Shown one piece after another: positions 3,448 to 52,306 of a stretch of DNA of 64,000 nucleotides. Every line of letters starts with the position of its first letter. The first letter of the stretch is position 1. The notes under the pieces are model-generated. The model searched no databases. It was not told the origin of the DNA and saw nothing but the letters and a program-made list of their open reading frames with translations. The stretch comes from a virus. Position numbers and translations under genes: made by a program. The stretch lies in UHGV virus genome UHGV-0084588; one strand, written 5' to 3'.

Positions 3448-4008
3448 GTGACTGCTTACGTACCTGATTTAAGTTTGTCCTCAGCCGAACTAGTGGTCGC
3501 TTTAATCAACCACGATAACGGTTCACGGTTGTCTCTAAGCGAAATCCGTATTAGCAACACTACGGCAAACCCATCCCCGACCACTTCGCGTCGTAACACA
3601 CTGACAGAGATTACAAAAATCAGGAAACCTGATGGTGCTTCTGTAGTTGTTTATTACGACCGTTTGGATGCGGACGAAGTGTTAGCGTCTGAACCTATTT
3701 TGATTTCGTTAGATGGTACTGAAGACAACCTTCGTGACATTTTAGGTGTTGTAAATGAATTCTGCGGAACGAACTTACAACCCGAGGATTTACGTGCTTC
3801 AGATATCACCTTAGGTAAAGAACCCATTGCTGTCAACGTTGCTGACGATTCCCCTGCGTGGATGAATGCGTTTATGGTGACGTTATTTGATACAACCGAA
3901 CGGGCATTGGCAAACGAAGAAGATGCAATCTTCTGTATTGATGATGAGGCCGTTCTTACCTTTGAGGTTCCAGATGACGGTACGGCTGAAGAAAATCCGG
4001 CTATATGA
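3448..4008 (+). CDS. fibre-associated paralog-family protein (family A, copy 1)
   Basis: GTG start with GGGAGG RBS 5 nt upstream (the ATG at 3403 lies inside the terminator hairpin); paralogous to 10163..10678 (VPDLSL, LINHDNG, CG.NLQP.DL motifs) and more distantly to 18506, 19368, 22511 and 23107. Confidence 0.6.
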   Translation: MTAYVPDLSLSSAELVVALINHDNGSRLSLSEIRISNTTANPSPTTSRRNTLTEITKIRKPDGASVVVYYDRLDADEVLASEPILISLDGTEDNLRDILGVVNEFCGTNLQPEDLRASDITLGKEPIAVNVADDSPAWMNAFMVTLFDTTERALANEEDAIFCIDDEAVLTFEVPDDGTAEENPAI

Positions 4009-4078
4009 GCTTGACGCTTTTACTGGTAATGGAGGCCAAAGTAAACTTTTATCAAGACTTAGTAAACCCAGATCATGA
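3974..4078 (+). pseudogene. truncated remnant of a tail-fibre N-terminal anchor domain
   Basis: 34-codon ORF MTVRLKKIRLYELDAFTGNGGQSKLL... closely resembles the N-termini of the fibre at 4213 (MAKAVKKIRLHDLRPYTGDIGEGVLLF) and of 10678 (MAELVGKVRIHELETLSEDITGVVVLA); overlaps the end of 3448..4008 in another frame, as the intact pair does at 10678. Confidence 0.4.
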
Positions 4079-4157
4079 GAACGCGGAATTGGACATCACT
4101 TTCACGTTAGAAGTTGATGGATTAAAACCAGTATAATAATCCGCTTATAAAAATGTT

Positions 4158-4190
4158 GGGGAGGTGCTTTACCTCCCCAGATCTTTTAGC
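4158..4190 (+). promoter_or_regulatory. stem-loop upstream of the tail-fibre start
   Basis: Perfect 8-bp inverted repeat GGGGAGGT-gcttt-ACCTCCCC followed by a short T-rich stretch, after a TATAAAAA box; terminator or 5' UTR structure. Confidence 0.4.
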
Positions 4191-4212: not shown

Positions 4213-7200
4213 ATGGCTAAAGCGGTAAAGAAAATACGTTTACACGATTTGCGTCCATACACCGGGGATATCGGTGAAGGCGTTTTACTTTTTTCGAAAG
4301 ACGAAAAAGATTATAAGTTACCCGTCCGCGAAATCGTTGCGGATATTGACACCGTCAGAAACGCGGTTGCTGATGCACAAACAGCTGCAGCCAAATCGCA
4401 GCAGTCTGCAACAGAAGCTACGCAAGCAAAAAATTTAGCGGAAACCGCGAAGCAACAAACTGACACGTTAGCTTCCACAGTCAGTGAGCAAGCGGGAACC
4501 GTTGCCACTAAAACTGCTGAAGTTAACAAAAAACACGCTGAAGTTTTAGCAGCGAAAACTGCCGTAGATACTGTTTCACAATCAGTAAATGAGAAGGCTC
4601 AAGCTGTCGCCACATCCGAACAATCTGTGACGGCTACGGCGGCTGATGTAACTAAGAAAGCAGAAACGGTTACGCAACAGGCCGGACAAGTTCAACAGAC
4701 GGCTACCAGCGTTGAAAATACCGCAGCTTCAGTCGAGGCCAGTAAAGGTGCAGTGGAGAAAATCGCTGCACAGGTCGCGAAAGATAAAGAAAGCTCAGAA
4801 GGGGCAGCTACGCGTTCGGAGTCAGCTGCCCTACGTGCGGAGAAAATCGCTGCCCAAGGATTAGTTGACGCTACTACAACCGGTAAAGGTATTGTTAAAC
4901 TTAACGATACCCTGACAAGCGATTCCGTGACTGAGGCTGCTACACCGTCCACGGTTAAACAGCTGAACGACGATTTACAGTTAAAAGCCAATAAACATTC
5001 GCCGAATTTTACGGGTAACCCGACATCCCCAAAACCGCCGAAGGACTCGAATGACACGAGTATCTCCACAACGTCCTGGGTGCGTGACGCGATTGCGGAA
5101 TTGGTTGGTTCTTCACCCGAGACGCTAAATACCTTAGCGGAATTAGCTGAGGCGTTAGGTAATGACCCTAACTTCGCAACAACGATCACTGAGGAACTTG
5201 CGCAGAAACAACCTCTCAGCCCGTTACTCACCGCTATTGCCGCAGTCACCACAGCGGCAAACAAACTCATGTATTTCACCGGCAGTAATAAAGTCGGATT
5301 AACAGATTTTACAGAAACGGCCAGATCCTTGTTAGCGAAAGGGTCAACTGCGGATATCATTAACTTCCTGGGTTTGAAACCCACCGTTGATAAAGCAAAC
5401 GGCGCATTACAGAAAAACTCTAACGGTGCTGATATCCCAAATAAAGAAACTTTTGCTCGCAACATCGGCCTATCTCCTGATACCTATCTGCGTTTCCGTG
5501 GCGAAATGCCTGTAGATGCTGATATTAACACATTTGCTCCAGATGCTAATTACACAGGAACATGGTCCAAGTCGACATCAACCAATGCGTCGATGGCAAA
5601 ACACTTCCCAGAAGACGGTGCAGTCGGTTATCTGGAAGTGTATAAAGCGGGCAACTACAGTGGAGCGCAACGTTTTACCTGCCGTAATGGTAACGTGTAC
5701 AACCGTATGTTGTCAGGTGCGTGGAACGGAACTAATGGCCCGTGGTCACCGTGGAGAATGGTAACTACCGGTGTACGTCCGTTATCTACATCGATCGATC
5801 TGAACTCCTTAGGCGGCGCTGAGCACATGGGTAACTGGCGTAACTCGTCCAGTTCGTTAGCGGTGTTCGACAGACATTATCCTGAAGAGGGCGGTAATGC
5901 GCAAGGCGTATTAGAAGTCATGGAAGGCGGTCTTTATGGACGGTTGCAACGATACACCACACGACATGGTACGATGTATGTCCGTGGTTTGACTGCGACT
6001 TGGGATTCTTCTAATCCGCAGTGGGAAGATTGGATTCAGGTTGGGTATCAGGTAGACGGTGCCTACTATAAGGGTAGCTTTAACGACTTAACTAAACCGG
6101 GCCGCTTTAGTGTTACCGGTGAGGCTACAGACAGTCCGTTAACAGACTCTGCTGGCGCAACCTTGCTAGGTGTTTGCGAAGTTACCTTACGCTTAGACGG
6201 TTCAGGCGTTGAACAAAATTATACCACATACGGTACAGGCGCAACTTCGAAAGGTCGCAAGTTCCAACGAATTCGTACAGGAAACGCCTGGAGCGAATGG
6301 CGAGAGATTTTCACATCCTATTCACTCCCGTTGACTTTAGGGATCGGTGGGGTTGCTGCTAAGGTCGATCCGTTAGACTGGCAAACATTCGACTTCGTTC
6401 CTGGCCAGATGATAAGTACACCGTTGAATACCATGAAAAATATTCCTGCGGGAATGGATTGGGGTGTTATCGACGGTAACTTGGTCACTATTCTTGTAGG
6501 GGCGTCGGAGGACACCGGTACTGGCCGGAGTATGTTGGTCTGGCGTGGTACAGTGTCTACTGCTAACTATCGCTTCTTTGCTGTTCGCGTCGCTGGTGAA
6601 AAGGGTAAACGTACTATTACTAGCCGCCAGATGCCCGTATTGAATGCAGCGCATACGTGGGCAGAAAAACAGACCTTTGCAAAAGGGTTATCGGGCGAAT
6701 TGACAGGTAATGCGTCAACGGCAACAAAACTGAAAACAGCCCGTTTAATCGGCGGTGTAAGTTTCGACGGTAGCGGCGACATTAGCCTCCCTGGTGTGAA
6801 CCAACAGGGTAATCAAAACACCTCTGGGAACGCGGGAACCGCAACCAAATTACAAACGGCTCGAAACATCAACGGTGTGAAATTTGATGGGTCTAGAGAC
6901 ATCAATATCAACACGTTGGTAGGACGTGGACGTGTTACTGCACTGTCTGGTTCAAACAAAGGTACACCCGGTATTCAGATGTACGAAGTTTACAATAACG
7001 GTTATCCAACCGCTTATGGTAACTTACTGCATTTGGGTGGCGCTACTGCGCTAGGTGAAGGCGAGCTGTTAATCGGATGGCCGGGGACGAGCGGTGCGCA
7101 CGCGCCTGTTTATATTCGTAGTCGACGTGATACGGCTGATGCACCGTGGTCAGATTGGGCACAAGTTTACACTGCCCGTGACAGCATTCCTGGCGTAAAT

Positions 7201-8655
7201 GCCACCGGTAATCAAGATACTACCGGCAACGCCGCTACCGCGACGAAACTGAAAACCGCTCGCAGGATCGGAGGCGTTACCTTTGACGGTACAGGTGATA
7301 TCAATTTACCGGGCGTTAACCAGCAAGGCAACCAGAATACGACAGGTAATGCAGCGACCGCTACTAAGTTACAAACCGCACGTAAGATCGGCGGTGTGCT
7401 TTTCGATGGGACAAAAGACGTTAATCTTCCTGGCGTAAACCAAACCGGTAACCAATCGACTACGGGGAATGCGGCGACAGCGACTAAGCTCCAGACTGCG
7501 CGAAATATAGGTGGTGTAGCTTTTGATGGTACTAAAGACATCAGTTTACCTGGAGTAAACCAAACAGGTAATCAGGCGACTACCGGAAACGCAGCCACGG
7601 CAACAAAGTTGCAAACCGCAAGAACCATTAACGGTATCGCATTTGACGGCACTAGAAATATATCGTTAGGACCTGCCGATATAGGTTGTCCGGCATCGCC
7701 TAGTGGTTGGTTAGAAACTGGCAAAGATGGCGGCGCAATAACTACAGCACAGCTAGTGACGTTATTGAAAAATAACGGCGCATTTACCACAAGATCGTGG
7801 GTTGCTCGCTGTGCATGGGCTTATGCCGCTAGTGCGTCCATACCACACAGCGAGACGGGTTGTGGTGTTATTCCGTTAGCTGGGGCCGTTATAGAAGTGA
7901 TTAGTAACGGTAATAGCACAAACAACTACACGATCCGTATAACGACTGCCACAACGGCGAGCGTCGGTGGCGCACTCACTAATGCGGAGTTTATCTACGT
8001 ATTTAACGGCGATACATACTCACCAGGCTGGCGTCGTGCTTACAATACGAGAAACAAGCCAACTGCTGCAGAAGTGGGTGCACTACCTTCGGGGGGCGGT
8101 ACTATAGGCGGCGATTTAACCGTTAACGGTAAATTGGCCACTAAATACCCTGATTTTCGAATCGCTTACGGTACCTACGGTTTTATTTTACGTAACGACG
8201 GTGCCAATACCTATTTCTTAGTAACCGACGCCGGACAAGCCGCAACGGGTTCCTGGAACGGATTACGCCCGTTGTCTTTTAATAATTCTAACGGCCAAGT
8301 AAACTTTGGACATAACGTTACTGGCAACGGTAACGGTTCGTTTAACGACGTACAGATTCGTTCTGACCGTCGTAACAAACGTAATCTGGTGAAGCTGGAT
8401 AAAGCTTTGGATCGGTTAGAGTTACTAACCGGTTATTTGTACGAAATTCAGCATCCGGATGACGGCTGGCAGACTTCTGTAGGTCTAATTGCTCAGGACG
8501 CATTAGAAGCGTTACCTGAACTTGTGTCTGAGGATGATGATGCCATTTCAGGCGAAAAACGTTTACGTCTAAACTACAATGGCGTTATTGCGCTGTTAGT
8601 AGAGGGTATGAAAGCGTTGCGTCAAGAGGTTAACGAAATTAAAGGAAGATCCTAA
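4213..8655 (+). CDS. long tail fibre protein with C-terminal intramolecular chaperone (S74-like)
   Basis: 1480 aa from the ATG at 4213. N-terminal Ala/Gln/Thr-rich segment; four copies of a W-containing ~70-aa knob-like domain; six 40-aa repeats (GNQNTTGNAATATKLQTAR.IGGV.FDGT.D..LPGVNQ) of the phage tail-fibre repeat type; C-terminal ~97 aa (SDRRNKRNLVKLDKALDRLELLTGYLYE...) resembles the self-cleaving chaperone of T5 pb1 / K1F endosialidase. Confidence 0.85.
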   Translation: MAKAVKKIRLHDLRPYTGDIGEGVLLFSKDEKDYKLPVREIVADIDTVRNAVADAQTAAAKSQQSATEATQAKNLAETAKQQTDTLASTVSEQAGTVATKTAEVNKKHAEVLAAKTAVDTVSQSVNEKAQAVATSEQSVTATAADVTKKAETVTQQAGQVQQTATSVENTAASVEASKGAVEKIAAQVAKDKESSEGAATRSESAALRAEKIAAQGLVDATTTGKGIVKLNDTLTSDSVTEAATPSTVKQLNDDLQLKANKHSPNFTGNPTSPKPPKDSNDTSISTTSWVRDAIAELVGSSPETLNTLAELAEALGNDPNFATTITEELAQKQPLSPLLTAIAAVTTAANKLMYFTGSNKVGLTDFTETARSLLAKGSTADIINFLGLKPTVDKANGALQKNSNGADIPNKETFARNIGLSPDTYLRFRGEMPVDADINTFAPDANYTGTWSKSTSTNASMAKHFPEDGAVGYLEVYKAGNYSGAQRFTCRNGNVYNRMLSGAWNGTNGPWSPWRMVTTGVRPLSTSIDLNSLGGAEHMGNWRNSSSSLAVFDRHYPEEGGNAQGVLEVMEGGLYGRLQRYTTRHGTMYVRGLTATWDSSNPQWEDWIQVGYQVDGAYYKGSFNDLTKPGRFSVTGEATDSPLTDSAGATLLGVCEVTLRLDGSGVEQNYTTYGTGATSKGRKFQRIRTGNAWSEWREIFTSYSLPLTLGIGGVAAKVDPLDWQTFDFVPGQMISTPLNTMKNIPAGMDWGVIDGNLVTILVGASEDTGTGRSMLVWRGTVSTANYRFFAVRVAGEKGKRTITSRQMPVLNAAHTWAEKQTFAKGLSGELTGNASTATKLKTARLIGGVSFDGSGDISLPGVNQQGNQNTSGNAGTATKLQTARNINGVKFDGSRDININTLVGRGRVTALSGSNKGTPGIQMYEVYNNGYPTAYGNLLHLGGATALGEGELLIGWPGTSGAHAPVYIRSRRDTADAPWSDWAQVYTARDSIPGVNATGNQDTTGNAATATKLKTARRIGGVTFDGTGDINLPGVNQQGNQNTTGNAATATKLQTARKIGGVLFDGTKDVNLPGVNQTGNQSTTGNAATATKLQTARNIGGVAFDGTKDISLPGVNQTGNQATTGNAATATKLQTARTINGIAFDGTRNISLGPADIGCPASPSGWLETGKDGGAITTAQLVTLLKNNGAFTTRSWVARCAWAYAASASIPHSETGCGVIPLAGAVIEVISNGNSTNNYTIRITTATTASVGGALTNAEFIYVFNGDTYSPGWRRAYNTRNKPTAAEVGALPSGGGTIGGDLTVNGKLATKYPDFRIAYGTYGFILRNDGANTYFLVTDAGQAATGSWNGLRPLSFNNSNGQVNFGHNVTGNGNGSFNDVQIRSDRRNKRNLVKLDKALDRLELLTGYLYEIQHPDDGWQTSVGLIAQDALEALPELVSEDDDAISGEKRLRLNYNGVIALLVEGMKALRQEVNEIKGRS
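6689..6909 (+). repeat. tandem 120-nt coding repeats (block 1, about 2 units)
   Basis: Repeated nucleotide units encoding ...TGNASTATKLKTAR.IGGV.FDGS.DI.LPGVNQ...; the minus-strand ORF 6567..6782 is a shadow of these. Confidence 0.7.
7189..7669 (+). repeat. tandem 120-nt coding repeats (block 2, 4 units)
   Basis: Units begin at about 7189, 7309, 7429 and 7549 (CCTGGCGTAAAC / CCGGGCGTTAAC ... GGTAA.CA...AC.AC.GG.AA.GC.GC.AC.GC.AC.AA); the minus-strand ORF 7212..7541 is a shadow. Confidence 0.8.
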
Positions 8656-9437
8656 TGGCAGTTGTCGGCGTAGGTGGTTGGATTGGTTCTTCAGCAAAAG
8701 CTGAAGCTGGTAACGAATGGATGTCTGGCGCGATGCGCACACTTGGTGTGCCGGTTCCAGGCTGGATGTCGCAATTGGCGGGAAAATCAAAAGAGGTCCA
8801 TTATTCTATTGGTGCTAACCATAGCTATAATAAGGATACTCTTATTAACTATTTACGTTCTTTAGGCTCTACTGCTGTCGTTGTGACTATTACGGGGGAT
8901 TTAGTGTCCCATAGTAGCACGGTTCCTTGTTTAGAATTCCCTAGCAATCTTCCAAATTCGTATATTACCCTCATCATCAATCCTGGGGTTACAGTATACG
9001 GCAGAGGAGGCAACGGCGGTTCTAACTCACCAGGCGGTGCAGGTGGAACCGCAATACAGAACGGAATAGGAAACAGACTGCGTATAACCAACCGTGGCGC
9101 TATTGCCGGAGGCGGTGGCGGCGGTGGCGGCGGTAACAGGGGTAGACTAACATTTGGTGGTGGCGGTGGTCGCCCATTCGGTGCTGGTGGGTCTTCCTCT
9201 CATATGAGTTCCGGTGCGGCTGCTGGTACTATTTCCGCTCCTGGTAGAGGATCTGTTGGTGAGGGGTCTCTTAGTGCATATACAGGCGGTTCGGGTGGTA
9301 ATGTCGGTGCTGCTGGAGGAAGATGTAATACTCATGGTAACGGTACAGAATATAACGGCGGAGCAGCTGGTAAAGCTGTTACTGGTAATGCGCCAAGATG
9401 GGACGCAGTAGGTGCAATATATGGTTCACGTGTTTAA
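8655..9437 (+). CDS. gp38-like tail-fibre adhesin with glycine-rich motifs
   Basis: N-terminus MAVVGVGGWIGSSAKAEAGNEWMS and the YGRGGNGGSNSPGGAGG / GGGGGGGGG / GGGGGRPFGAGGS segments match, from memory, the T2/T6-type gp38 adhesin; start overlaps the fibre stop (TAATG). Confidence 0.75.
   Translation: MAVVGVGGWIGSSAKAEAGNEWMSGAMRTLGVPVPGWMSQLAGKSKEVHYSIGANHSYNKDTLINYLRSLGSTAVVVTITGDLVSHSSTVPCLEFPSNLPNSYITLIINPGVTVYGRGGNGGSNSPGGAGGTAIQNGIGNRLRITNRGAIAGGGGGGGGGNRGRLTFGGGGGRPFGAGGSSSHMSSGAAAGTISAPGRGSVGEGSLSAYTGGSGGNVGAAGGRCNTHGNGTEYNGGAAGKAVTGNAPRWDAVGAIYGSRV
9108..9170 (+). repeat. GGC/GGT codon run encoding poly-glycine
   Basis: ggaggcggtggcggcggtggcggcggt... low-complexity triplet repeat inside the gp38-like gene. 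Confidence 0.6.
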
Positions 9438-9497
9438 TTTGAAAAAGTATGGGGGTACTCACTCCCCTCCTCGCATCTTTCAAAAGGTGGGGGTAAA

Positions 9498-10010
9498 ATG
9501 GCGGTAGCATCAGGATGGGTCGGATCTTCAGCTAAGAATGAAACTGGCGAACAATGGATGAGCGCTGCGGGTAGTAAATTAGGATTGGGTAGACCATTTA
9601 TGATGAGTCAAATGGTGGGCCGATCTACGGGTTGTAAAATTGCGACCGCTTACTACAAAGGGAATCCTCCTGATAAAGTTGAAAACTGGGGGGCCGTAGG
9701 TTCAGATTGGCCATTGGCTGAAAAGAACAAAGGCACAATTACTGGTGCTTCGAGCTGTGGTTTAGGTCGTTTAGTGGGGATCGTACTTACGCAAGCTCAC
9801 TACATTTCTGGTGTTCCACCCACTGCGGCTTTATACATCGCAGGAGGAAGGGCAAGTAATATTACAGTAACAGTTGGTGGGGTCTCACAAGTTTTCACCT
9901 ATAATAGTGTTATTAACGGTTTTCACTATTACTGGCAAGGAACACCTAGTTCGGCCTTTATAGCAGCAATGAAGAGAACGGGTGTTACACAAGATTTGAA
10001 AATTAGTTAA
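9498..10010 (+). CDS. gp38-like adhesin paralog (no glycine-rich region)
   Basis: N-terminus MAVASGWVGSSAKNETGEQWMSAAG parallels 8655..9437, with a different C-terminal domain; GGGGGTAAAATG RBS. Confidence 0.6.
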   Translation: MAVASGWVGSSAKNETGEQWMSAAGSKLGLGRPFMMSQMVGRSTGCKIATAYYKGNPPDKVENWGAVGSDWPLAEKNKGTITGASSCGLGRLVGIVLTQAHYISGVPPTAALYIAGGRASNITVTVGGVSQVFTYNSVINGFHYYWQGTPSSAFIAAMKRTGVTQDLKIS

Positions 10011-10162
10011 CTAATTGGGGTAAAACGACAACTAATGCTAGTAAAATAAGAGTTAGTGAATTCGTAATTCAATAATTTTTTATAGAAAGGCTGATTTATT
10101 AGAATCGGAGGGGGTAAGATGTTGCTAGAAACATTTCACCCCCTACCATAGGGAGTAAGCTT

Positions 10163-10678
10163 ATGGGGCAATTCGTGCCGGATTTGTCGTTAACTTCACT
10201 TAACATGGTTATTTCACTGGTTAACCATGACCTCCAGCTCGACTTGCAAGAGAACGAGGTTGAAGTCAGCGACGTAAAGACCAGTAACGAAATGGATCGT
10301 GACACCACTGCTGTTGTAAAGATAAAACGTCCGGACAACAGAACGTTGCAGATATATTACAACCGTTTAACCGCAGAGCGGTGGTTAAACCAGCAACCTA
10401 TCCTAGTAAAGGTTTCCGGTAATGGCTTTACCGCACACGATCTAATCGACGGAATTAACGCGGCTTGTGGTTGTAATTTACAACCCGACGATCTTACCGA
10501 CGAATCATTTACCGTAGGGAAAGACGCTGTAACGTTACAGGTTTCACCCAACTCGTTAGGTTATAAAGGCCAATTCTCCGTTCTGGTTTTCGGTAACGAT
10601 GAAGAAGCTGCTGTAGTAAAAGACAACGATTTAATCGTTACCGCAGATAACCGTGTCTTAACATTCGGAGGCCGCTAA
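10163..10678 (+). CDS. fibre-associated paralog-family protein (family A, copy 2)
   Basis: Paralog of 3448..4008; AGGGAG RBS; stop overlaps the next start (TAATG). Confidence 0.6.
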   Translation: MGQFVPDLSLTSLNMVISLVNHDLQLDLQENEVEVSDVKTSNEMDRDTTAVVKIKRPDNRTLQIYYNRLTAERWLNQQPILVKVSGNGFTAHDLIDGINAACGCNLQPDDLTDESFTVGKDAVTLQVSPNSLGYKGQFSVLVFGNDEEAAVVKDNDLIVTADNRVLTFGGR

Positions 10679-11298
10679 TGGCTGAACTGGTAGGAAAGGT
10701 GCGCATTCATGAACTGGAGACACTTTCAGAAGACATCACGGGTGTAGTAGTCTTAGCGTCTAAGGAACAAACTGAATACCAACTCCCGATTGAGAAATTA
10801 GGGGGTACCGAGGTTACAGTGAGTCCGTCAGCGAATAACATCCTTAAGTCTAACAACGATGGGTTGTTTGTTGACGGCACTCATCCGATTATACCAAAAA
10901 TGGATGCAAAAACCTTATCGGGAAATATGGTGGTAGAAAAAACGTTGACAGGTGGTGCGGTAATCTGCAAAACAACAGTTGACGTTAATAATAGACTGGG
11001 GGTTTCGCAATTATCTGGAGTGTCAATTTATAGCCAGTGTCTGTTGGAAAATAAATTGGTTTATCTGGGAGAAGACGGCAGTATTATTGATGCGTACTTC
11101 TACATTAGTAATACAAAGACCACAGCCAGTACAATAACCCACACCATTCGTGTTGTTTTAGCGAAGATACCCTCTAAAGTTATCGATATCACCGATTTGT
11201 CTGAAACCGAAGTACAATACGAGAATAGTAATTTACCTGTTAAGATCGTTATTAAACATCTTGCAGGGACAACACTTTCCCAGAACGGAATGAAATAA
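10678..11298 (+). CDS. short fibre-like protein sharing the N-terminal anchor of the long tail fibre
   Basis: N-terminus MAELVGKVRIHELETLSEDITGVVVLASKEQTEYQLP aligns with the first ~40 aa of 4213..8655; followed by a strong terminator. Confidence 0.6.
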   Translation: MAELVGKVRIHELETLSEDITGVVVLASKEQTEYQLPIEKLGGTEVTVSPSANNILKSNNDGLFVDGTHPIIPKMDAKTLSGNMVVEKTLTGGAVICKTTVDVNNRLGVSQLSGVSIYSQCLLENKLVYLGEDGSIIDAYFYISNTKTTASTITHTIRVVLAKIPSKVIDITDLSETEVQYENSNLPVKIVIKHLAGTTLSQNGMK

Positions 11299-12763: not shown

Positions 12764-13279
12764 ATGTCAGTAAATATTAACATGAATCTTTATACTAAAC
12801 GTGAACGTCAGATTCTGGCGAATCAACCTGGTGTTACGACTATCGACGGTAAACCTATTGACCGTTTAAAAGTTATCGTTGCGCGAAATTGTCATGAACA
12901 CGATTGGGACATTACCTACTTCCGTTGTTGTTCGGTCGCAAATGCGCTTACTCAACTCTCTAACTACCACTCAGGACCGCTATTAAAAGACTGGGTTTGG
13001 TTAGTGCCAAGAACACCCACAGCAATTGAGTATCCCGCTGGACTAGTTTATATTCGACCTGTCGCTTATCCAGAGCGTCTGAAAGAATATCTTGAAGTTA
13101 TCTGGAACCGTCCTCGTAAAGAGCTGGTGACGATTATTAATTTACTGCAGCAGATCGAAATCCCCGGCGTTTCGAATTTGAAACTCACGTCTCGCGATAT
13201 TAACCAGGCTTACTGGGAACTGGAGTGGACAGAACCGAAATTCGAAAACACTAACCGTATTTTCTTGCACCGGGGGTAA
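12764..13279 (+). CDS. hypothetical protein
   Basis: 171-aa ORF preceded by the conserved TTTACCTAAAGGAGCATTAAATG initiation context. Confidence 0.65.
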   Translation: MSVNINMNLYTKRERQILANQPGVTTIDGKPIDRLKVIVARNCHEHDWDITYFRCCSVANALTQLSNYHSGPLLKDWVWLVPRTPTAIEYPAGLVYIRPVAYPERLKEYLEVIWNRPRKELVTIINLLQQIEIPGVSNLKLTSRDINQAYWELEWTEPKFENTNRIFLHRG

Positions 13280-18505: not shown

Positions 18506-19354
18506 ATGTCTCTTACGTCAAAACAGAAACTGCTAAAACTCATCAACACTGAAAACAATATTGTTCCGCCATTGACCTTCAGTGATGTTGATATCGGCGA
18601 ACCTACTGGTACTGGGGTTGATACCCAGGTGGTTCTGACTTCTAAACTCAAAGGCGATGAGTCTACTACTTTAACGGTGACTTACCATCGTCGTAATTTG
18701 CCAGAATACCTAACAGGCGAGTTGGTATTCGGTAACGACGGTGTTGTAACTGCTGCAGATTTGCTTAATGCAATCAACGCAAAATACGATTTAAATATTC
18801 TGCCGTCAGATATCGTTGATGCGAAAGTTGAAGGTAAAACCCACCAACTTGCCGCTAACGAGAAATCCTACGAGTGGTGTGGCGAAGTGACACTTACGCT
18901 ACGCGATCCTATTGATCTGGCTAAACTGCTACCTGTTACTCAATTAGAAAACCTGGTAGAGTATCCGTCCACCAAGAAAGGTAACGCTGCGGTTTATTCT
19001 TATCCGATTGACTTCACCGCAGAAAAAGATTACCTTGATCCGATTACCATTAACGACACCGTAGACTTAGTAGAGTTAGCTACTAAACTGACTAACGTTG
19101 TTGACGAGAAATGGGTAAGCGTACCTAAGAACGCTGCTAATAACTTGTTCGGTGCTAAGGTTATCTACGATGGCCCTACCGCAGGTTTCGAAGGCGCAAA
19201 TGCGAAGTACACGCGTGTGCTGGTACTCGCCCTAAGCGGTATGTGTTCTAACCTGACCGGTAAACTGTTAATTCACTTTAACGGAACCGATCGTCCGAAG
19301 TCGAAGATTGAATTAGCCAAGACTAATTCGGTCTTACCGGGATTCTTAGATTAA
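18506..19354 (+). CDS. paralog-family protein (family A-related)
   Basis: 282 aa; N-terminus LINTENN...FSDVDIGEPTG...TLTVTYHRRNL...DLLNAINAKYDLNILPSDI aligns with 3448, 10163, 19368, 22511 and 23107. Confidence 0.6.
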   Translation: MSLTSKQKLLKLINTENNIVPPLTFSDVDIGEPTGTGVDTQVVLTSKLKGDESTTLTVTYHRRNLPEYLTGELVFGNDGVVTAADLLNAINAKYDLNILPSDIVDAKVEGKTHQLAANEKSYEWCGEVTLTLRDPIDLAKLLPVTQLENLVEYPSTKKGNAAVYSYPIDFTAEKDYLDPITINDTVDLVELATKLTNVVDEKWVSVPKNAANNLFGAKVIYDGPTAGFEGANAKYTRVLVLALSGMCSNLTGKLLIHFNGTDRPKSKIELAKTNSVLPGFLD

Positions 19355-19367
19355 GAGGATTACAGTA

Positions 19368-19844
19368 ATGACCAGTCAAGAAACTATCTTCGACCTTATT
19401 AAAAAGGCTAACCCAGACGCCGAGCTCGACACCGCCAAAGTCACATTGGGTGAGCCCGTCGTAAGTACCGGTACGTACAACACCGAAATTACGGTTGCGC
19501 CGGTGAAGAATCTCGGTTATGTTAATAAGCAAACGTTCCAGTATAACCGCATTGATGCAGGTTTGTATTTCCTCAACGTATTGCCGAAACTGTTAGTTGA
19601 AACAGCCACCACGACTGCGGACTTGCTGCCTGTAATTAACGAGCAGTATGGCTTAACCCTTACCGAAGACGATGTGTGGGTAGAGCAGGTTGGTGCGTTA
19701 CCGCTAGACGGCAGTGCAATCGAGCACGGTATTTTCTTCCGCCCAGAGTGTCTAACCTGGGTCGGTGGTTTTACAGTGCGTGTTGCGCGTAAACCGTCTG
19801 TCGAGACACCGCCAGCTAAGCCATCGCGCGCTAAGAAGAAATAA
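19368..19844 (+). CDS. paralog-family protein (family A-related)
   Basis: 158 aa; same motif series (DLIKKANPD...VTLGEP...QYNRID...ADLLPVINEQYGLTLTEDDV). Confidence 0.6.
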   Translation: MTSQETIFDLIKKANPDAELDTAKVTLGEPVVSTGTYNTEITVAPVKNLGYVNKQTFQYNRIDAGLYFLNVLPKLLVETATTTADLLPVINEQYGLTLTEDDVWVEQVGALPLDGSAIEHGIFFRPECLTWVGGFTVRVARKPSVETPPAKPSRAKKK

Positions 19845-19906: not shown

Positions 19907-20497
19907 ATGGCCGAACGTTGGACTAAAGAAGGTATTATTGAATCAAAAACAGATTTAGAGGGTGGGTACGTGAACGACCCTGACGATAAAGGTGGGGAAA
20001 CCTGTCACGGGGTAACACTGACAACTGCACGCGAATACGGGTACAAAGGAAGAATGAAAGATCTGACCCGTGCGCAAGCGTTTGATATTTACGATCGTGG
20101 TTGGTGGAAGAAACTTAAACTCGATGAGATTTTCGCTATCTCGCCGATACTCGCAGACCGGATGTTTGATTTTGGTATTAACTCTGGCCGTGTTAACTGT
20201 GTGAAATCATTACAACGTATTCTCAACGTTTTAAATAACGAAGGGAAACTTTACGCAGATATTGACACCGACGGTGGCATGGGCCCTAAAACGCTAGGTG
20301 CCCTGAATGCTTATCTGAATTACCGTAAAGGCGAGGGATTAGGCATCTTAATCTTTGCGTTAATCTCACACCAGGTAACCTACTACACGGAAATCTCCGA
20401 AAAGCGTAAGAAGAATGAAAAATTCGCTTACGGCTGGTACGGACGCGTGTACAGGGAAATGCCGGATTATGTAGTGAAGGCGGGGTTAGTAAAATGA
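19907..20497 (+). CDS. GH108-type lysozyme with peptidoglycan-binding domain (putative endolysin)
   Basis: N-terminal EGGYVNDPDDKGGETCHGVT matches the GH108 signature; C-terminal part resembles PG_binding_3; AGAGGAG RBS. Confidence 0.7.
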   Translation: MAERWTKEGIIESKTDLEGGYVNDPDDKGGETCHGVTLTTAREYGYKGRMKDLTRAQAFDIYDRGWWKKLKLDEIFAISPILADRMFDFGINSGRVNCVKSLQRILNVLNNEGKLYADIDTDGGMGPKTLGALNAYLNYRKGEGLGILIFALISHQVTYYTEISEKRKKNEKFAYGWYGRVYREMPDYVVKAGLVK

Positions 20498-51919: not shown

Positions 51920-52306
51920 ATGAATATCAGAACTATACTTTATACTATCATTATTTTCTGTGCGGTCGGAATTACTGGCACTTATGCTTTCGGTGATTCG
52001 GATGTCCGCTATTACGAACCGGCTCCTGACTCACCCATTATCAACCCGGATGAGTCCCCTACGTTAATGCGCAGTTTCGGTAAACTGCAAGTTTATCGTT
52101 TAGTGCGTGGTGAAACGTGTACGGGATTACTCATTGCTGACACCCGTGCACAAGTCTACCAACGTCTAACCGATATTGCTTGCGAACAACCGAAAGTAAT
52201 GTCAGTTAGTATCCATCCGCTATCAGTTGGTAACTATACCGCTGTGGACTTCTTTCATAACGCCGAATTAATTGGCCGTGTTACTTTAAATCGTCCTGCT
52301 GAATAA
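51920..52306 (+). CDS. secreted/membrane-anchored small protein
   Basis: MNIRTILYTIIIFCAVGITGTYAFG N-terminal hydrophobic segment; an alternative GTG start exists at 51914. Confidence 0.5.
   Translation: MNIRTILYTIIIFCAVGITGTYAFGDSDVRYYEPAPDSPIINPDESPTLMRSFGKLQVYRLVRGETCTGLLIADTRAQVYQRLTDIACEQPKVMSVSIHPLSVGNYTAVDFFHNAELIGRVTLNRPAE

What the first reader, a model, noticed from the sequence alone, without database searches (positions are those of the whole stretch)
3974..4078. Vestigial tail-fibre N-terminus directly upstream of the intact long tail fibre gene
A 34-codon ORF (MTVRLKKIRLYELDAFTGNGGQSKLL...) overlaps the end of 3448..4008 in another frame, exactly as the intact partner gene 10678 overlaps 10163..10678, then stops. 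About 135 nt later the intact fibre starts with a closely similar N-terminus (MAKAVKKIRLHDLRPYTGDIGEGVLLF). This looks like the scar of a fibre gene replacement: the ancestral anchor was truncated and a new fibre with its own anchor was inserted. The alternative is a small expressed anchor-mimic peptide.
Basis: seen in the sequence. Interest (0 to 1): 0.65.

Follow-up and report, generated by a model that had tools for sequence, protein, structure and literature searches.

The report
Deletion scar of two tail genes
The short reading frame is a leftover of a 3.3-kb deletion that removed a short tail-fibre gene and a large tail-protein gene from a giant enterobacterial phage; it drifts neutrally and is an ordinary pseudogene remnant, not a new kind of element.

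Summary
The 34-codon ORF at 3974..4078 begins with a significant match to the N-terminal "anchor" shared by the phage's fibre proteins (profile E = 8.5e-5 against the six-frame window; 0 of 20,000 shuffles).

It is only half of the scar. About 19 codons (3974..~4030) are the 5' end of a 153-aa short fibre gene (TF). The 34 codons at ~4032..4136, in another frame, are the 3' end of a 1001-aa tail-protein gene (TP; E = 1.1e-9).

Eight close relatives carry TF and TP intact between the DUF7941 gene and the same long tail fibre. The long fibre was therefore already present, and the event was a ~3.3-kb deletion, not the insertion of a new fibre.

- **One origin.** Seven divergent genomes share one junction. 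One of them received the deleted allele by recombination.
- **Neutral drift.** omega is about 1, against 0.08 in the adjacent gene. Variable sites are spread evenly over the three codon phases. Frameshifts occur, the anchor's invariant His is lost, and the ORF's stop codon is polymorphic.

The anchor-mimic peptide idea is therefore unlikely. Compared with SPN3US, the overall history is gain of a long-fibre/gp38 module followed by loss of TF-TP.

Interest is low to moderate.

The parts
3448..4008 (+). A1: DUF7941 (N-terminal module only) virion protein. It is intact and under purifying selection. Its last 35 nt overlap the start of the scar ORF.
   Evidence: Pfam DUF7941 E = 7.9e-19, profile positions 3-153 of 276. 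About 45% aa identity to the SPN3US and Asesino 'virion structural protein'. omega = 0.08 against L003.
3964..3967 (+). GAGG Shine-Dalgarno-like motif 6 nt upstream of ATG 3974. It is inherited from the intact TF gene and lies inside the A1 coding sequence.
   Evidence: Read from the sequence. The same 'GAGGTTCCAGATG' precedes the intact TF in L004.
3974..4030 (+). 5' remnant: the first ~19 codons of the short tail-fibre gene TF (the anchor N-terminus).
   Evidence: 43/57 nt and 13/19 aa identical to L011 TF at the syntenic position. Anchor HMM E = 8.5e-5, aligned to model positions 1-22.
3974..4078 (+).
   Evidence: The stop is TGG in L016, L017, L019 and L020. The ORF is cut to 18 codons in L012.
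4027..4034 (.). Deletion junction, resolved to about 8 nt. About 3.3 kb is missing relative to intact relatives (roughly L004 9581..12883).
   Evidence: Sliding identity switches from the TF 5' register to the TP 3' register here. The same junction is present in seven loci.
4032..4136 (+). 3' remnant: the last 34 codons plus the stop of the ~1001-aa tail protein gene TP, in a different frame from the 5' remnant.
   Evidence: HMM of eight TP C-termini hits segment 3990..4133 with E = 1.1e-9 and nothing else in the window. The alignment runs collinearly through the stop codon, the hairpin and the long-fibre start.
4005..4136 (+). 43-aa ORF that gene callers annotate here. It is the TP remnant with a chance ATG overlapping the A1 stop (ATGA).
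   Evidence: Called as a 43-residue gene on L016-L021. The ATGs at 4005 and 4029 are absent from L003, L007, L008 and L009. The frame is broken in L010. omega is about 1.1.
4156..4180 (+). Terminator-like hairpin that follows TP in intact relatives and is retained after the scar.
   Evidence: It aligns with the region after the TP stop in L004.
4213..8655 (+). Long tail fibre (1480 aa) with the same type of N-terminal anchor. It was already present downstream of TP before the deletion.
   Evidence: Phage_fiber_2, Gp34_trimer and Peptidase_S74 domains. Its first 45 residues are identical to those of the long fibre in intact relatives L004 and L013.
8655..10010 (+). Two gp38-type adhesin genes (8655..9437 and 9498..10010) belonging to the long-fibre module.
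   Evidence: Pfam GP38 and Gp38_N. 80-91% nt identity to E. coli phages RB49/JSE and CMS-2020a.
10163..11298 (+). Intact paralogous pair: A2 (DUF7941, 10163..10678) and F2 (206-aa fibre with anchor, 10678..11298).

Best explanation
Region 3974..4136 is the scar of one ancient ~3.3-kb deletion in the tail-fibre locus of an SPN3US-related jumbo phage.

**Ancestral order.** DUF7941 gene (A1), then a 153-aa short fibre TF whose first ~44 residues form the anchor shared by all fibres of this phage group, then a 1001-aa tail protein TP, a hairpin, the long tail fibre, and the gp38 adhesins.

**The deletion.** It joined codon ~19 of TF to the last 34 codons of TP, out of frame. What remains is a 34-codon ORF that still has TF's ribosome-binding site and start codon, and a 43-codon ORF that gene callers annotate.

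**Status of the DNA.** Neither ORF is maintained by selection. This is neutrally drifting spacer between A1, which is still needed, and the hairpin and upstream region of the long fibre.

**Inferred consequence, not shown.** The virion loses the TF-TP receptor-binding unit and relies on the long fibre with gp38 adhesins, plus F2. The long fibre and its module had been gained earlier, since SPN3US and Asesino lack them. The overall history is gain followed by loss.
For: **Synteny and homology**
- SPN3US and Asesino have A, then TF, then TP. The TF N-termini read MATVVKKKRLHELDSYDGD.. and MAAPVKKKRLHELDVFSGD... The TP C-terminus reads ..DIYRDLAIPDHTTASLDITFTI...
- Close relatives L004, L005, L011, L013, L014, L022, L029 and L030 have A-TF-TP followed by the same long fibre.

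**Statistics**
- Anchor HMM E = 8.5e-5.
- TP C-terminus HMM E = 1.1e-9.
- Shuffle test: 0 of 20,000.
- 43/57 nt identical to L011 TF.

**Single event**
- The junction is identical in the window, L003, L007, L008, L009, L010 and L012.
- L012 resembles L005 on both flanks but resembles L010 in the scar, so the allele moved by recombination.

**Neutrality**
- Window against L003: A1 is 94.9% identical with omega 0.08. The scar is 85.9% identical, with omega 0.67-1.0 in the ORF frame and 1.1 in the TP frame.
- Across the clade, 16.4% of scar sites are variable, against 17.1% of A1 third-codon positions. They are spread 6/10/5 over the three phases.
- Fisher tests against A1 give p = 0.0025 and p = 0.0011.
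- A +1 indel in L012 truncates the ORF to 18 codons, and a -1 indel in L010 breaks the TP frame.
- The anchor's invariant His11 is Tyr in the window and Gln in four other scars.
- Four genomes whose A1 protein is identical to the window's have TGA changed to TGG at the ORF stop.
- The intact TF anchor is constrained: 8 synonymous against 1 nonsynonymous change over 44 codons, L011 against L030.
Against: - The start codon and a GAGG ribosome-binding site are intact, and the ORF sits on the A1 transcript, so a peptide is probably still made. Absence of function is inferred from evolution, not measured.
- Six of seven scars keep a 34-codon ORF of the same length. With so little divergence and so few indels, this is weak evidence either way.
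- All the selection statistics rest on few substitutions (23 between the window and L003).
- The exact breakpoint and any microhomology cannot be resolved after drift.
- One extra G (GGAGGCC against GGAGCC in intact relatives) decides that the fusion is out of frame. I cannot tell whether the original deletion was in frame.
Confidence: 0.9

Rival explanations
1. One reading: one replacement event in which a new fibre gene with its own anchor was inserted and the resident fibre gene was truncated at the same time.
For: - The long fibre carries a complete anchor and starts 135 nt after the remnant.
- The long-fibre/gp38 module is foreign in origin: 80-91% nt identity to E. coli phage adhesin genes. 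It is absent from SPN3US and Asesino.
Against: - Eight relatives have intact TF and TP immediately upstream of the same long fibre, with the same intergenic hairpin.
- The scar's 3' half is the TP C-terminus and runs collinearly into that intergenic region. The fibre was therefore already there when TF-TP were deleted.
Confidence: 0.04
2. The 34-aa product is a functional small protein, for example an anchor mimic that competes with fibres for their docking site or regulates fibre loading.
For: - An intact ATG and GAGG at 6-nt spacing lie inside a transcribed gene.
- The ORF length is kept in six of seven scar lineages.
- The deleted allele has spread into a second genomic background.
Against: - omega is about 1 over the 19 anchor codons.
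- The invariant His11 is replaced in 5 of 7 scars.
- L012 truncates the ORF to 18 codons.
- The stop codon is lost in near-identical genomes.
- Only 19 of ~44 anchor residues remain.
Confidence: 0.04
3. The 43-aa ORF 4005..4136 that gene callers annotate is a real small gene preserving the TP C-terminal peptide.
For: - It is called as a gene on six contigs.
- It has an ATGA overlap with the A1 stop.
- The 34 C-terminal residues are recognisably TP-like.
Against: - Both candidate ATGs are absent from L003, L007, L008 and L009.
- A -1 indel breaks the frame in L010.
- omega is 1.1-1.6.
Confidence: 0.02

Closest known systems
SPN3US 'tail fiber protein' YP_009153417.1 (156 aa) and 'tail protein' YP_009153418.1 (1005 aa), with their Asesino orthologs gp140 and gp141
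   Same: - Same position directly after the DUF7941 gene.
- The window's 5' remnant matches their short-fibre N-terminus, and its 3' remnant matches their tail-protein C-terminus.
   Different: In the window both genes are reduced to 19 and 34 codons, fused out of frame, and evolving neutrally.
Conserved N-terminal attachment modules on otherwise unrelated phage fibres or tailspikes, for example T5-like DT57C LtfA/LtfB, N4-like G7C gp63.1/gp66 and CBA120 tailspikes (from my own knowledge, not tested here)
   Same: One ~44-residue N-terminal motif heads at least four different fibre bodies in this phage group: TF, the long fibre, F2 and F3. This is the pattern expected of a common docking module with exchangeable distal parts.
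   Different: The docking partner is unknown. No sequence relationship to those systems was found or tested.
DUF7941 proteins of chimalliviruses: Goslar gp22/gp23 and PhiKZ gp126/gp127 (bioRxiv 10.64898/2026.04.21.720040)
   Same: - A1 and A2 carry the DUF7941 N-terminal module.
- The window also has a full-length copy (18506..19354) followed by an N-terminal-module-only copy (19368..19844), like gp22 and gp23.
- The preprint places these proteins on the peripheral baseplate and proposes a role in host recognition.
   Different: - A1 and A2 are each followed by a fibre gene with an anchor.
- Whether the anchor docks on the DUF7941 N-terminal module is only an inference. A profile comparison of the anchor with the DUF7941 linker gave no signal.
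Gene remnants left by deletions in phage receptor-binding loci, which are generally mosaic (from my own knowledge)
   Same: A fragment of a fibre gene left next to an intact one, in a locus that also shows other decayed copies in relatives.
   Different: Nothing unusual. Here the undeleted state, the single origin and the lateral spread of the allele could all be documented.

Membership tests
Deletion remnant / pseudogene fragment | Significant homology to part of a gene that is intact at the syntenic position in relatives | tested here: met
   The 5' part matches the TF N-terminus (HMM E = 8.5e-5; 43/57 nt to L011). The 3' part matches the TP C-terminus (E = 1.1e-9)..
Deletion remnant / pseudogene fragment | The rest of the gene is absent and the flanks are collinear with the intact locus | tested here: met
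   163 nt here correspond to 3468 nt in L004. The flanks align through A1 on one side and through the hairpin and long-fibre start on the other.
Deletion remnant / pseudogene fragment | Neutral evolution: omega about 1, no codon-phase bias, frame-breaking indels | tested here: met
   omega is 0.67-1.1 against 0.08 in A1. Variable sites fall 6/10/5 over the three phases. The rate equals that of A1 third positions. Indels occur in L010 and L012. Fisher p = 0.0025 and 0.0011.
Deletion remnant / pseudogene fragment | No functional product | not testable with these tools
   Needs ribosome profiling, proteomics and genetics.
Anchor-bearing fibre proteins of SPN3US-like phages (TF, long fibre, F2, F3) | Complete ~44-residue N-terminal motif including the invariant R9, H11 and L13 and the ..VLLxSKDxKEY.. 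segment | tested here: not met
   Only residues 1-19/22 align. H11 is Tyr in the window. The SKDxKEY segment is absent.
Anchor-bearing fibre proteins of SPN3US-like phages (TF, long fibre, F2, F3) | A fibre or receptor-binding body following the anchor | tested here: not met
   The ORF stops after 34 codons. Residues 20-34 are out-of-frame TP sequence.
Anchor-bearing fibre proteins of SPN3US-like phages (TF, long fibre, F2, F3) | Start overlapping or abutting the 3' end of a DUF7941 gene | tested here: met
   A 35-nt overlap with A1, the same as TF in L004.
Functional small ORF (microprotein) | Start, stop and length conserved among relatives | tested here: not met
   L012 is truncated at codon 18. 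The stop is lost in L016, L017, L019 and L020.
Functional small ORF (microprotein) | Purifying selection on the peptide sequence | tested here: not met
   9 nonsynonymous against 3 synonymous changes in codons 1-19, window against L003. The intact TF anchor shows 0-1 nonsynonymous against 3-8 synonymous.
Functional small ORF (microprotein) | Translated in infected cells | not testable with these tools
   GAGG followed 6 nt later by ATG is present, so translation is plausible but unmeasured.
Fibre cassette replacement by insertion | The 'new' fibre is absent from genomes that keep the old gene intact | tested here: not met
   The long fibre is present downstream of intact TF-TP in eight relatives.

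The most novel reading that the evidence does not exclude
The deleted allele may be advantageous rather than merely tolerated.

Removing TF-TP could free docking sites, perhaps on the upstream DUF7941 protein A1, for the long fibre with its gp38 adhesins. That would shift or widen host range, and would explain why one deletion allele has been carried by recombination into a second genomic background (L012).

A weaker variant is that the residual 19-residue anchor peptide is translated and modulates fibre loading.

My data neither support nor exclude selection for the allele. No clean host association was seen.
Probability: 0.08. Interest if true: 0.5.

Novelty: new member of a known kind. Interest (0 to 1): 0.27.

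Why it matters
**Annotation.** The 43-aa 'hypothetical protein' that gene callers place here, and the 34-codon ORF, should be marked as remnants of two genes rather than as genes.

**Biology.**
- TF-TP, the tail-protein unit conserved from SPN3US to this clade, is dispensable once a long fibre with gp38 adhesins is present.
- The adjacent DUF7941 protein stays under strong selection without its neighbouring fibre.
- One ~44-residue N-terminal module heads every fibre type in this group.

With the 2026 proposal that DUF7941 proteins build host-recognition structures on the chimallivirus baseplate, the natural pair of deleted and undeleted genomes offers a ready comparison. It could be used to ask what TF-TP and the DUF7941 partners contribute to adsorption.

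It does not reveal a new mechanism.

Tried and rejected
1. **Frameshift in A1.** I first suspected that the A1 C-terminus was shifted by a 1-nt deletion relative to A2 ('FGGR*'). I dropped this because the same 35-nt overlap and stop position exist in intact relatives.
2. **Exact breakpoint and microhomology.** L011 shows 'TTACCGG' against 'TTACGG' near the two breakpoints. After drift the junction can only be placed within about 8 nt.
3. **Structure of A1.** The AlphaFold2 model from a 7-sequence alignment had mean pLDDT 44.9, too poor for a fold search, so none was run.
4. **Solved structures.** Sequence searches of the PDB with A1 and TP found nothing. TF gave only chance-level hits.
5. **'The fibre anchor mimics the DUF7941 linker that docks on the next protomer's N-terminal module.'** hhalign of the TF family against the single full-length DUF7941 protein of the window placed the anchor on the linker (residues 144-165), but with E = 0.23. 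Against an 8-sequence full-length profile the signal vanished. This remains a lead only.
6. **Host association of deleted and intact forms.**
   - Cluster names suggested that the intact form occurs in Salmonella and the deleted form in Shigella or E. coli.
   - Intact copies also occur as 222-kb circular 'plasmids' in E. coli 98232 and Enterobacter ludwigii.
   - Scar-type A1 proteins also occur in Salmonella assemblies, so there is no clean association.
7. **Megablast of the locus against cultured phages.** No match. The clade is known only from metagenomes and from contigs in bacterial assemblies.
8. **Weak anchor-HMM hit on the minus strand at 52134..52205 (E = 0.012).** It looks like chance.

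Full report
**1. What is in the sequence**

The ORF exists at 3974..4078 and reads MTVRLKKIRLYELDAFTGNGGQSKLLSRLSKPRS*.

- It starts 35 nt before the stop of gene 3448..4008 and lies in another frame.
- A GAGG motif sits 6 nt upstream of its ATG.
- A third-frame ORF, 4005..4136 (43 aa), overlaps both.
- A terminator-like hairpin at 4156..4180 follows.
- The 1480-aa long tail fibre (LTF) starts at 4213.

Annotation of the neighbouring genes:

| Coordinates | Name used here | Annotation |
|---|---|---|
| 3448..4008 | A1 | DUF7941, N-terminal module only |
| 10163..10678 | A2 | DUF7941, N-terminal module only |
| 4213..8655 | LTF | Fibre with Phage_fiber_2, Gp34_trimer and Peptidase_S74 domains |
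| 8655..9437 and 9498..10010 | gp38 adhesins | GP38 / Gp38_N |
| 10678..11298 | F2 | 206-aa protein with an N-terminus resembling that of the LTF |

**2. Is the similarity real?**

Yes.

- The peptide aligns with the LTF N-terminus at BLOSUM62 score 56, and 0 of 20,000 shuffles reach that score.
- I built an HMM from 18 intact anchor N-termini taken from the window and its relatives, leaving out all scar ORFs. Against all 1848 six-frame segments of the window it finds the LTF (2e-25), F2 (2e-23) and this ORF (8.5e-5). Nothing else passes the inclusion threshold.
- The alignment covers only model positions 1-22.

**3. What it is**

A1 is about 45% identical to a 'virion structural protein' of the jumbo phages SPN3US, Asesino and their relatives. 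In those phages the gene order is DUF488, a hypothetical gene, the DUF7941 gene, a ~155-aa 'tail fiber protein' (TF) and a ~1000-aa 'tail protein' (TP).

- The TF N-termini are MATVVKKKRLHELDSYDGD.. and MAAPVKKKRLHELDVFSGD... This is the motif seen in the short ORF.
- The TP C-termini are ..DIYRDLAIPDHTTASLDITFTIPDDPLETN* and its Asesino equivalent. They match the 43-aa ORF of the window..NFYQDLVNPDHENAELDITFTLEVDGLKPV*.
- An HMM of eight TP C-termini hits window segment 3990..4133 at E = 1.1e-9 and nothing else.

Region 3974..4136 therefore holds the 5' end of one gene and the 3' end of the next, in different frames.

**4. Close relatives settle the history**

Scans with A1 returned loci from viral and metagenome collections, from assemblies, and from two complete bacterial genomes in which the phage is recorded as a 222-kb circular plasmid. 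A tblastn map and ORF lists divide them into two forms.

| Form | Loci | Layout |
|---|---|---|
| Intact | L004, L005, L011, L013, L014, L022, L029, L030 (A1 82-89% identical where measured) | A, TF (153 aa), TP (1001 aa), the same hairpin, then the same LTF |
| Scar | window, L003, L007, L008, L009, L010 (A1 93-96%) and L012 (85%) | A, about 210 nt, then the LTF |

- The first 45 residues of the LTF are identical in the window, L004 and L013.
- The LTF was therefore already in place, and the event was a deletion.
- From the TF start codon to the TP stop is 3468 nt in L004 and 163 nt in the window, so about 3.3 kb was lost.
- Register-specific identity switches from the TF 5' register to the TP 3' register at about 4027-4034.
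- The 5' remnant is 43/57 nt identical to L011 TF but only 31/57 to the window's own LTF. It is an ortholog of TF, not a copy of the LTF anchor.

**5. One event, later moved by recombination**

All seven scars share the same junction sequence, TTTTACYGGTAAYGGAGGMCAAA.

L012 is 92-98% identical to L005 across most of A1, dipping to 88% in one 100-nt window, and 88-96% identical across the first kilobase of the LTF. It is only 59-84% identical to L010 in those flanks. Within the scar the pattern reverses: 85-93% to L010 and 67-70% to L005. The deleted allele was therefore carried into a second lineage by homologous recombination.

**6. Scar or functional peptide?**

*Window against L003*

| Region | nt identity | Synonymous : nonsynonymous | omega |
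|---|---|---|---|
| A1 outside the overlap | 94.9% | 21 : 6 | 0.08 |
| Scar, 163 nt | 85.9% | n/a | 0.67 for the whole short ORF |
| Scar, the 19 anchor codons | n/a | 3 : 9 | about 1.0 |
| Scar, TP frame | n/a | n/a | 1.1 |

Fisher tests against A1 give p = 0.0025 for the short ORF and p = 0.0011 for the TP-frame remnant.

*Across the six non-recombinant scar genomes*
- 21 of 128 scar sites beyond A1 are variable (16.4%).
- This equals the rate at A1 third-codon positions (17.1%).
- The variable sites fall 6/10/5 over the three phases, chi-square p = 0.37.

*Frame-breaking changes*
- L012 has a +1 insertion that ends the ORF at codon 18.
- L010 has a -1 deletion that breaks the TP frame.
- The two candidate ATGs of the 43-aa ORF are missing in L003, L007, L008 and L009.

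*Loss of conserved features*
- His11 is invariant in all 18 intact anchors. It is Tyr in the window and Gln in four other scars.
- Four genomes that encode an A1 protein identical to the window's have TGA changed to TGG at the short ORF's stop codon.

*Contrast with the intact gene*
- The intact TF anchor is constrained: 8 synonymous against 1 nonsynonymous change over 44 codons, L011 against L030.

Relatives do carry the ORF, but it is neither identical nor under purifying selection. The scar reading stands. The peptide may still be translated, because TF's ribosome-binding site and start codon survive inside the A1 coding sequence. That point is unmeasured.

**7. Wider history**

In SPN3US and Asesino, TP is followed after two small genes by the homolog of window gene 12764..13279. 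The whole stretch from the LTF to F2 (4213..11298), plus two further genes, is absent there. The gp38 genes are 80-91% nt identical to genes of E. coli phages.

The lineage therefore first gained a long-fibre/adhesin module whose fibre carries the resident anchor type. A sub-lineage later lost TF-TP. 'Replacement' is correct as a two-step outcome, not as a single insertion that truncated the old gene.

**8. How it works (inference)**

- TP has no anchor, while TF is little more than an anchor plus a ~110-aa domain. TF probably tethers TP to the virion, and the two were lost as a unit.
- TP has only a sub-threshold GH76-like match.
- A 2026 preprint reports that DUF7941 proteins are specific to chimalliviruses, sit on the peripheral baseplate, and form head-to-tail filaments proposed to act in host recognition (bioRxiv 10.64898/2026.04.21.720040).
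- The window has four DUF7941 genes: A1, A2, a full-length copy at 18506..19354 and an N-terminal-module copy at 19368..19844.
- A1 remains under strong selection after losing TF. Its role is therefore not tied to TF alone, and it may serve the LTF.
- I tested whether the anchor resembles the DUF7941 linker and found no supported signal.
- The A1 structure prediction was too poor to use.

**9. Comparison and novelty**

This is a gene remnant in a mosaic receptor-binding locus, which is a well-known kind of feature. The specifics are new: two genes, a single origin and lateral spread of the allele. The clade has no cultured representative in the phage collection searched. The mechanism is ordinary.

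No clean association between form and host emerged.

**10. Verdict**

- Observation: confirmed.
- Interpretation: partly supported. It is a scar, but of a deletion across two genes, with the long fibre already present.
- Anchor-mimic alternative: unlikely.
- Interest: low to moderate.

Noticed in passing
window 8655..9437 and 9498..10010: Two T-even-type gp38 adhesin genes sit in an SPN3US-like jumbo phage. They are 80-91% nt identical to genes of E. coli phages RB49/JSE and CMS-2020a. This points to recent horizontal transfer of the adhesin module into this lineage.
   Followed up: partly
window 18506..19354 and 19368..19844: A full-length DUF7941 gene (profile positions 5-275 of 276) is followed directly by a copy with only the N-terminal module. 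This mirrors Goslar gp22/gp23, reported as abundant filament-forming virion proteins. With A1 and A2 the window has four DUF7941 genes.
   Followed up: partly
L012 about 10450..10793 (equivalent to window 3962..4154): A recombinant patch. L012 resembles L005 on both flanks but carries the L010-like deletion scar, so the deleted allele moved between lineages.
   Followed up: yes
L005 about 10127 (codon 48 of TP): An otherwise intact TP gene has an in-frame stop (EEGVL*NNRHF against EEGVLSNNRHF in L004). This may be an independent inactivation of TP or an assembly error.
   Followed up: partly
L013 20297..20434; L010 16786..17625: Further decay in the second fibre pair. In L013, F2 is reduced to its last ~46 codons right after A2. 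In L010, A2 has two frameshifts and F2 reads 'MAKT*' followed by a C-terminal fragment, with an intact third fibre (F3, carrying the anchor) downstream. These could be real decay or metagenome assembly errors.
   Followed up: partly
L016, L017, L019, L020 (equivalent to window 4078): Genomes that encode an A1 protein identical to the window's have A>G at 4078. This turns the short ORF's TGA stop into TGG.
   Followed up: yes
L029 (NZ_CP173450.1, E. coli 98232) and L030 (NZ_CP134650.1, Enterobacter ludwigii); protein clusters: Relatives of this ~222-kb phage are deposited as circular 'plasmids' in complete bacterial genomes. They also appear as 222-226-kb contigs in many Salmonella, Shigella and E. 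coli isolate assemblies; one A1 variant was seen on 405 contigs. This suggests a carrier state or persistent contamination of cultures.
   Followed up: partly
window 19907..20497: A gene with Glyco_hydro_108 and PG_binding_3 domains (probably an endolysin or a virion-associated lysin) lies directly after the DUF7941 pair.
   Followed up: no
window 3974..4008 (A1 C-terminal tail): The acidic tail of A1 after '..VLTF' varies strongly among close relatives (11 of 35 sites variable) and is absent from A2. The overlap with the TF start therefore lies in a weakly constrained part of A1.
   Followed up: partly
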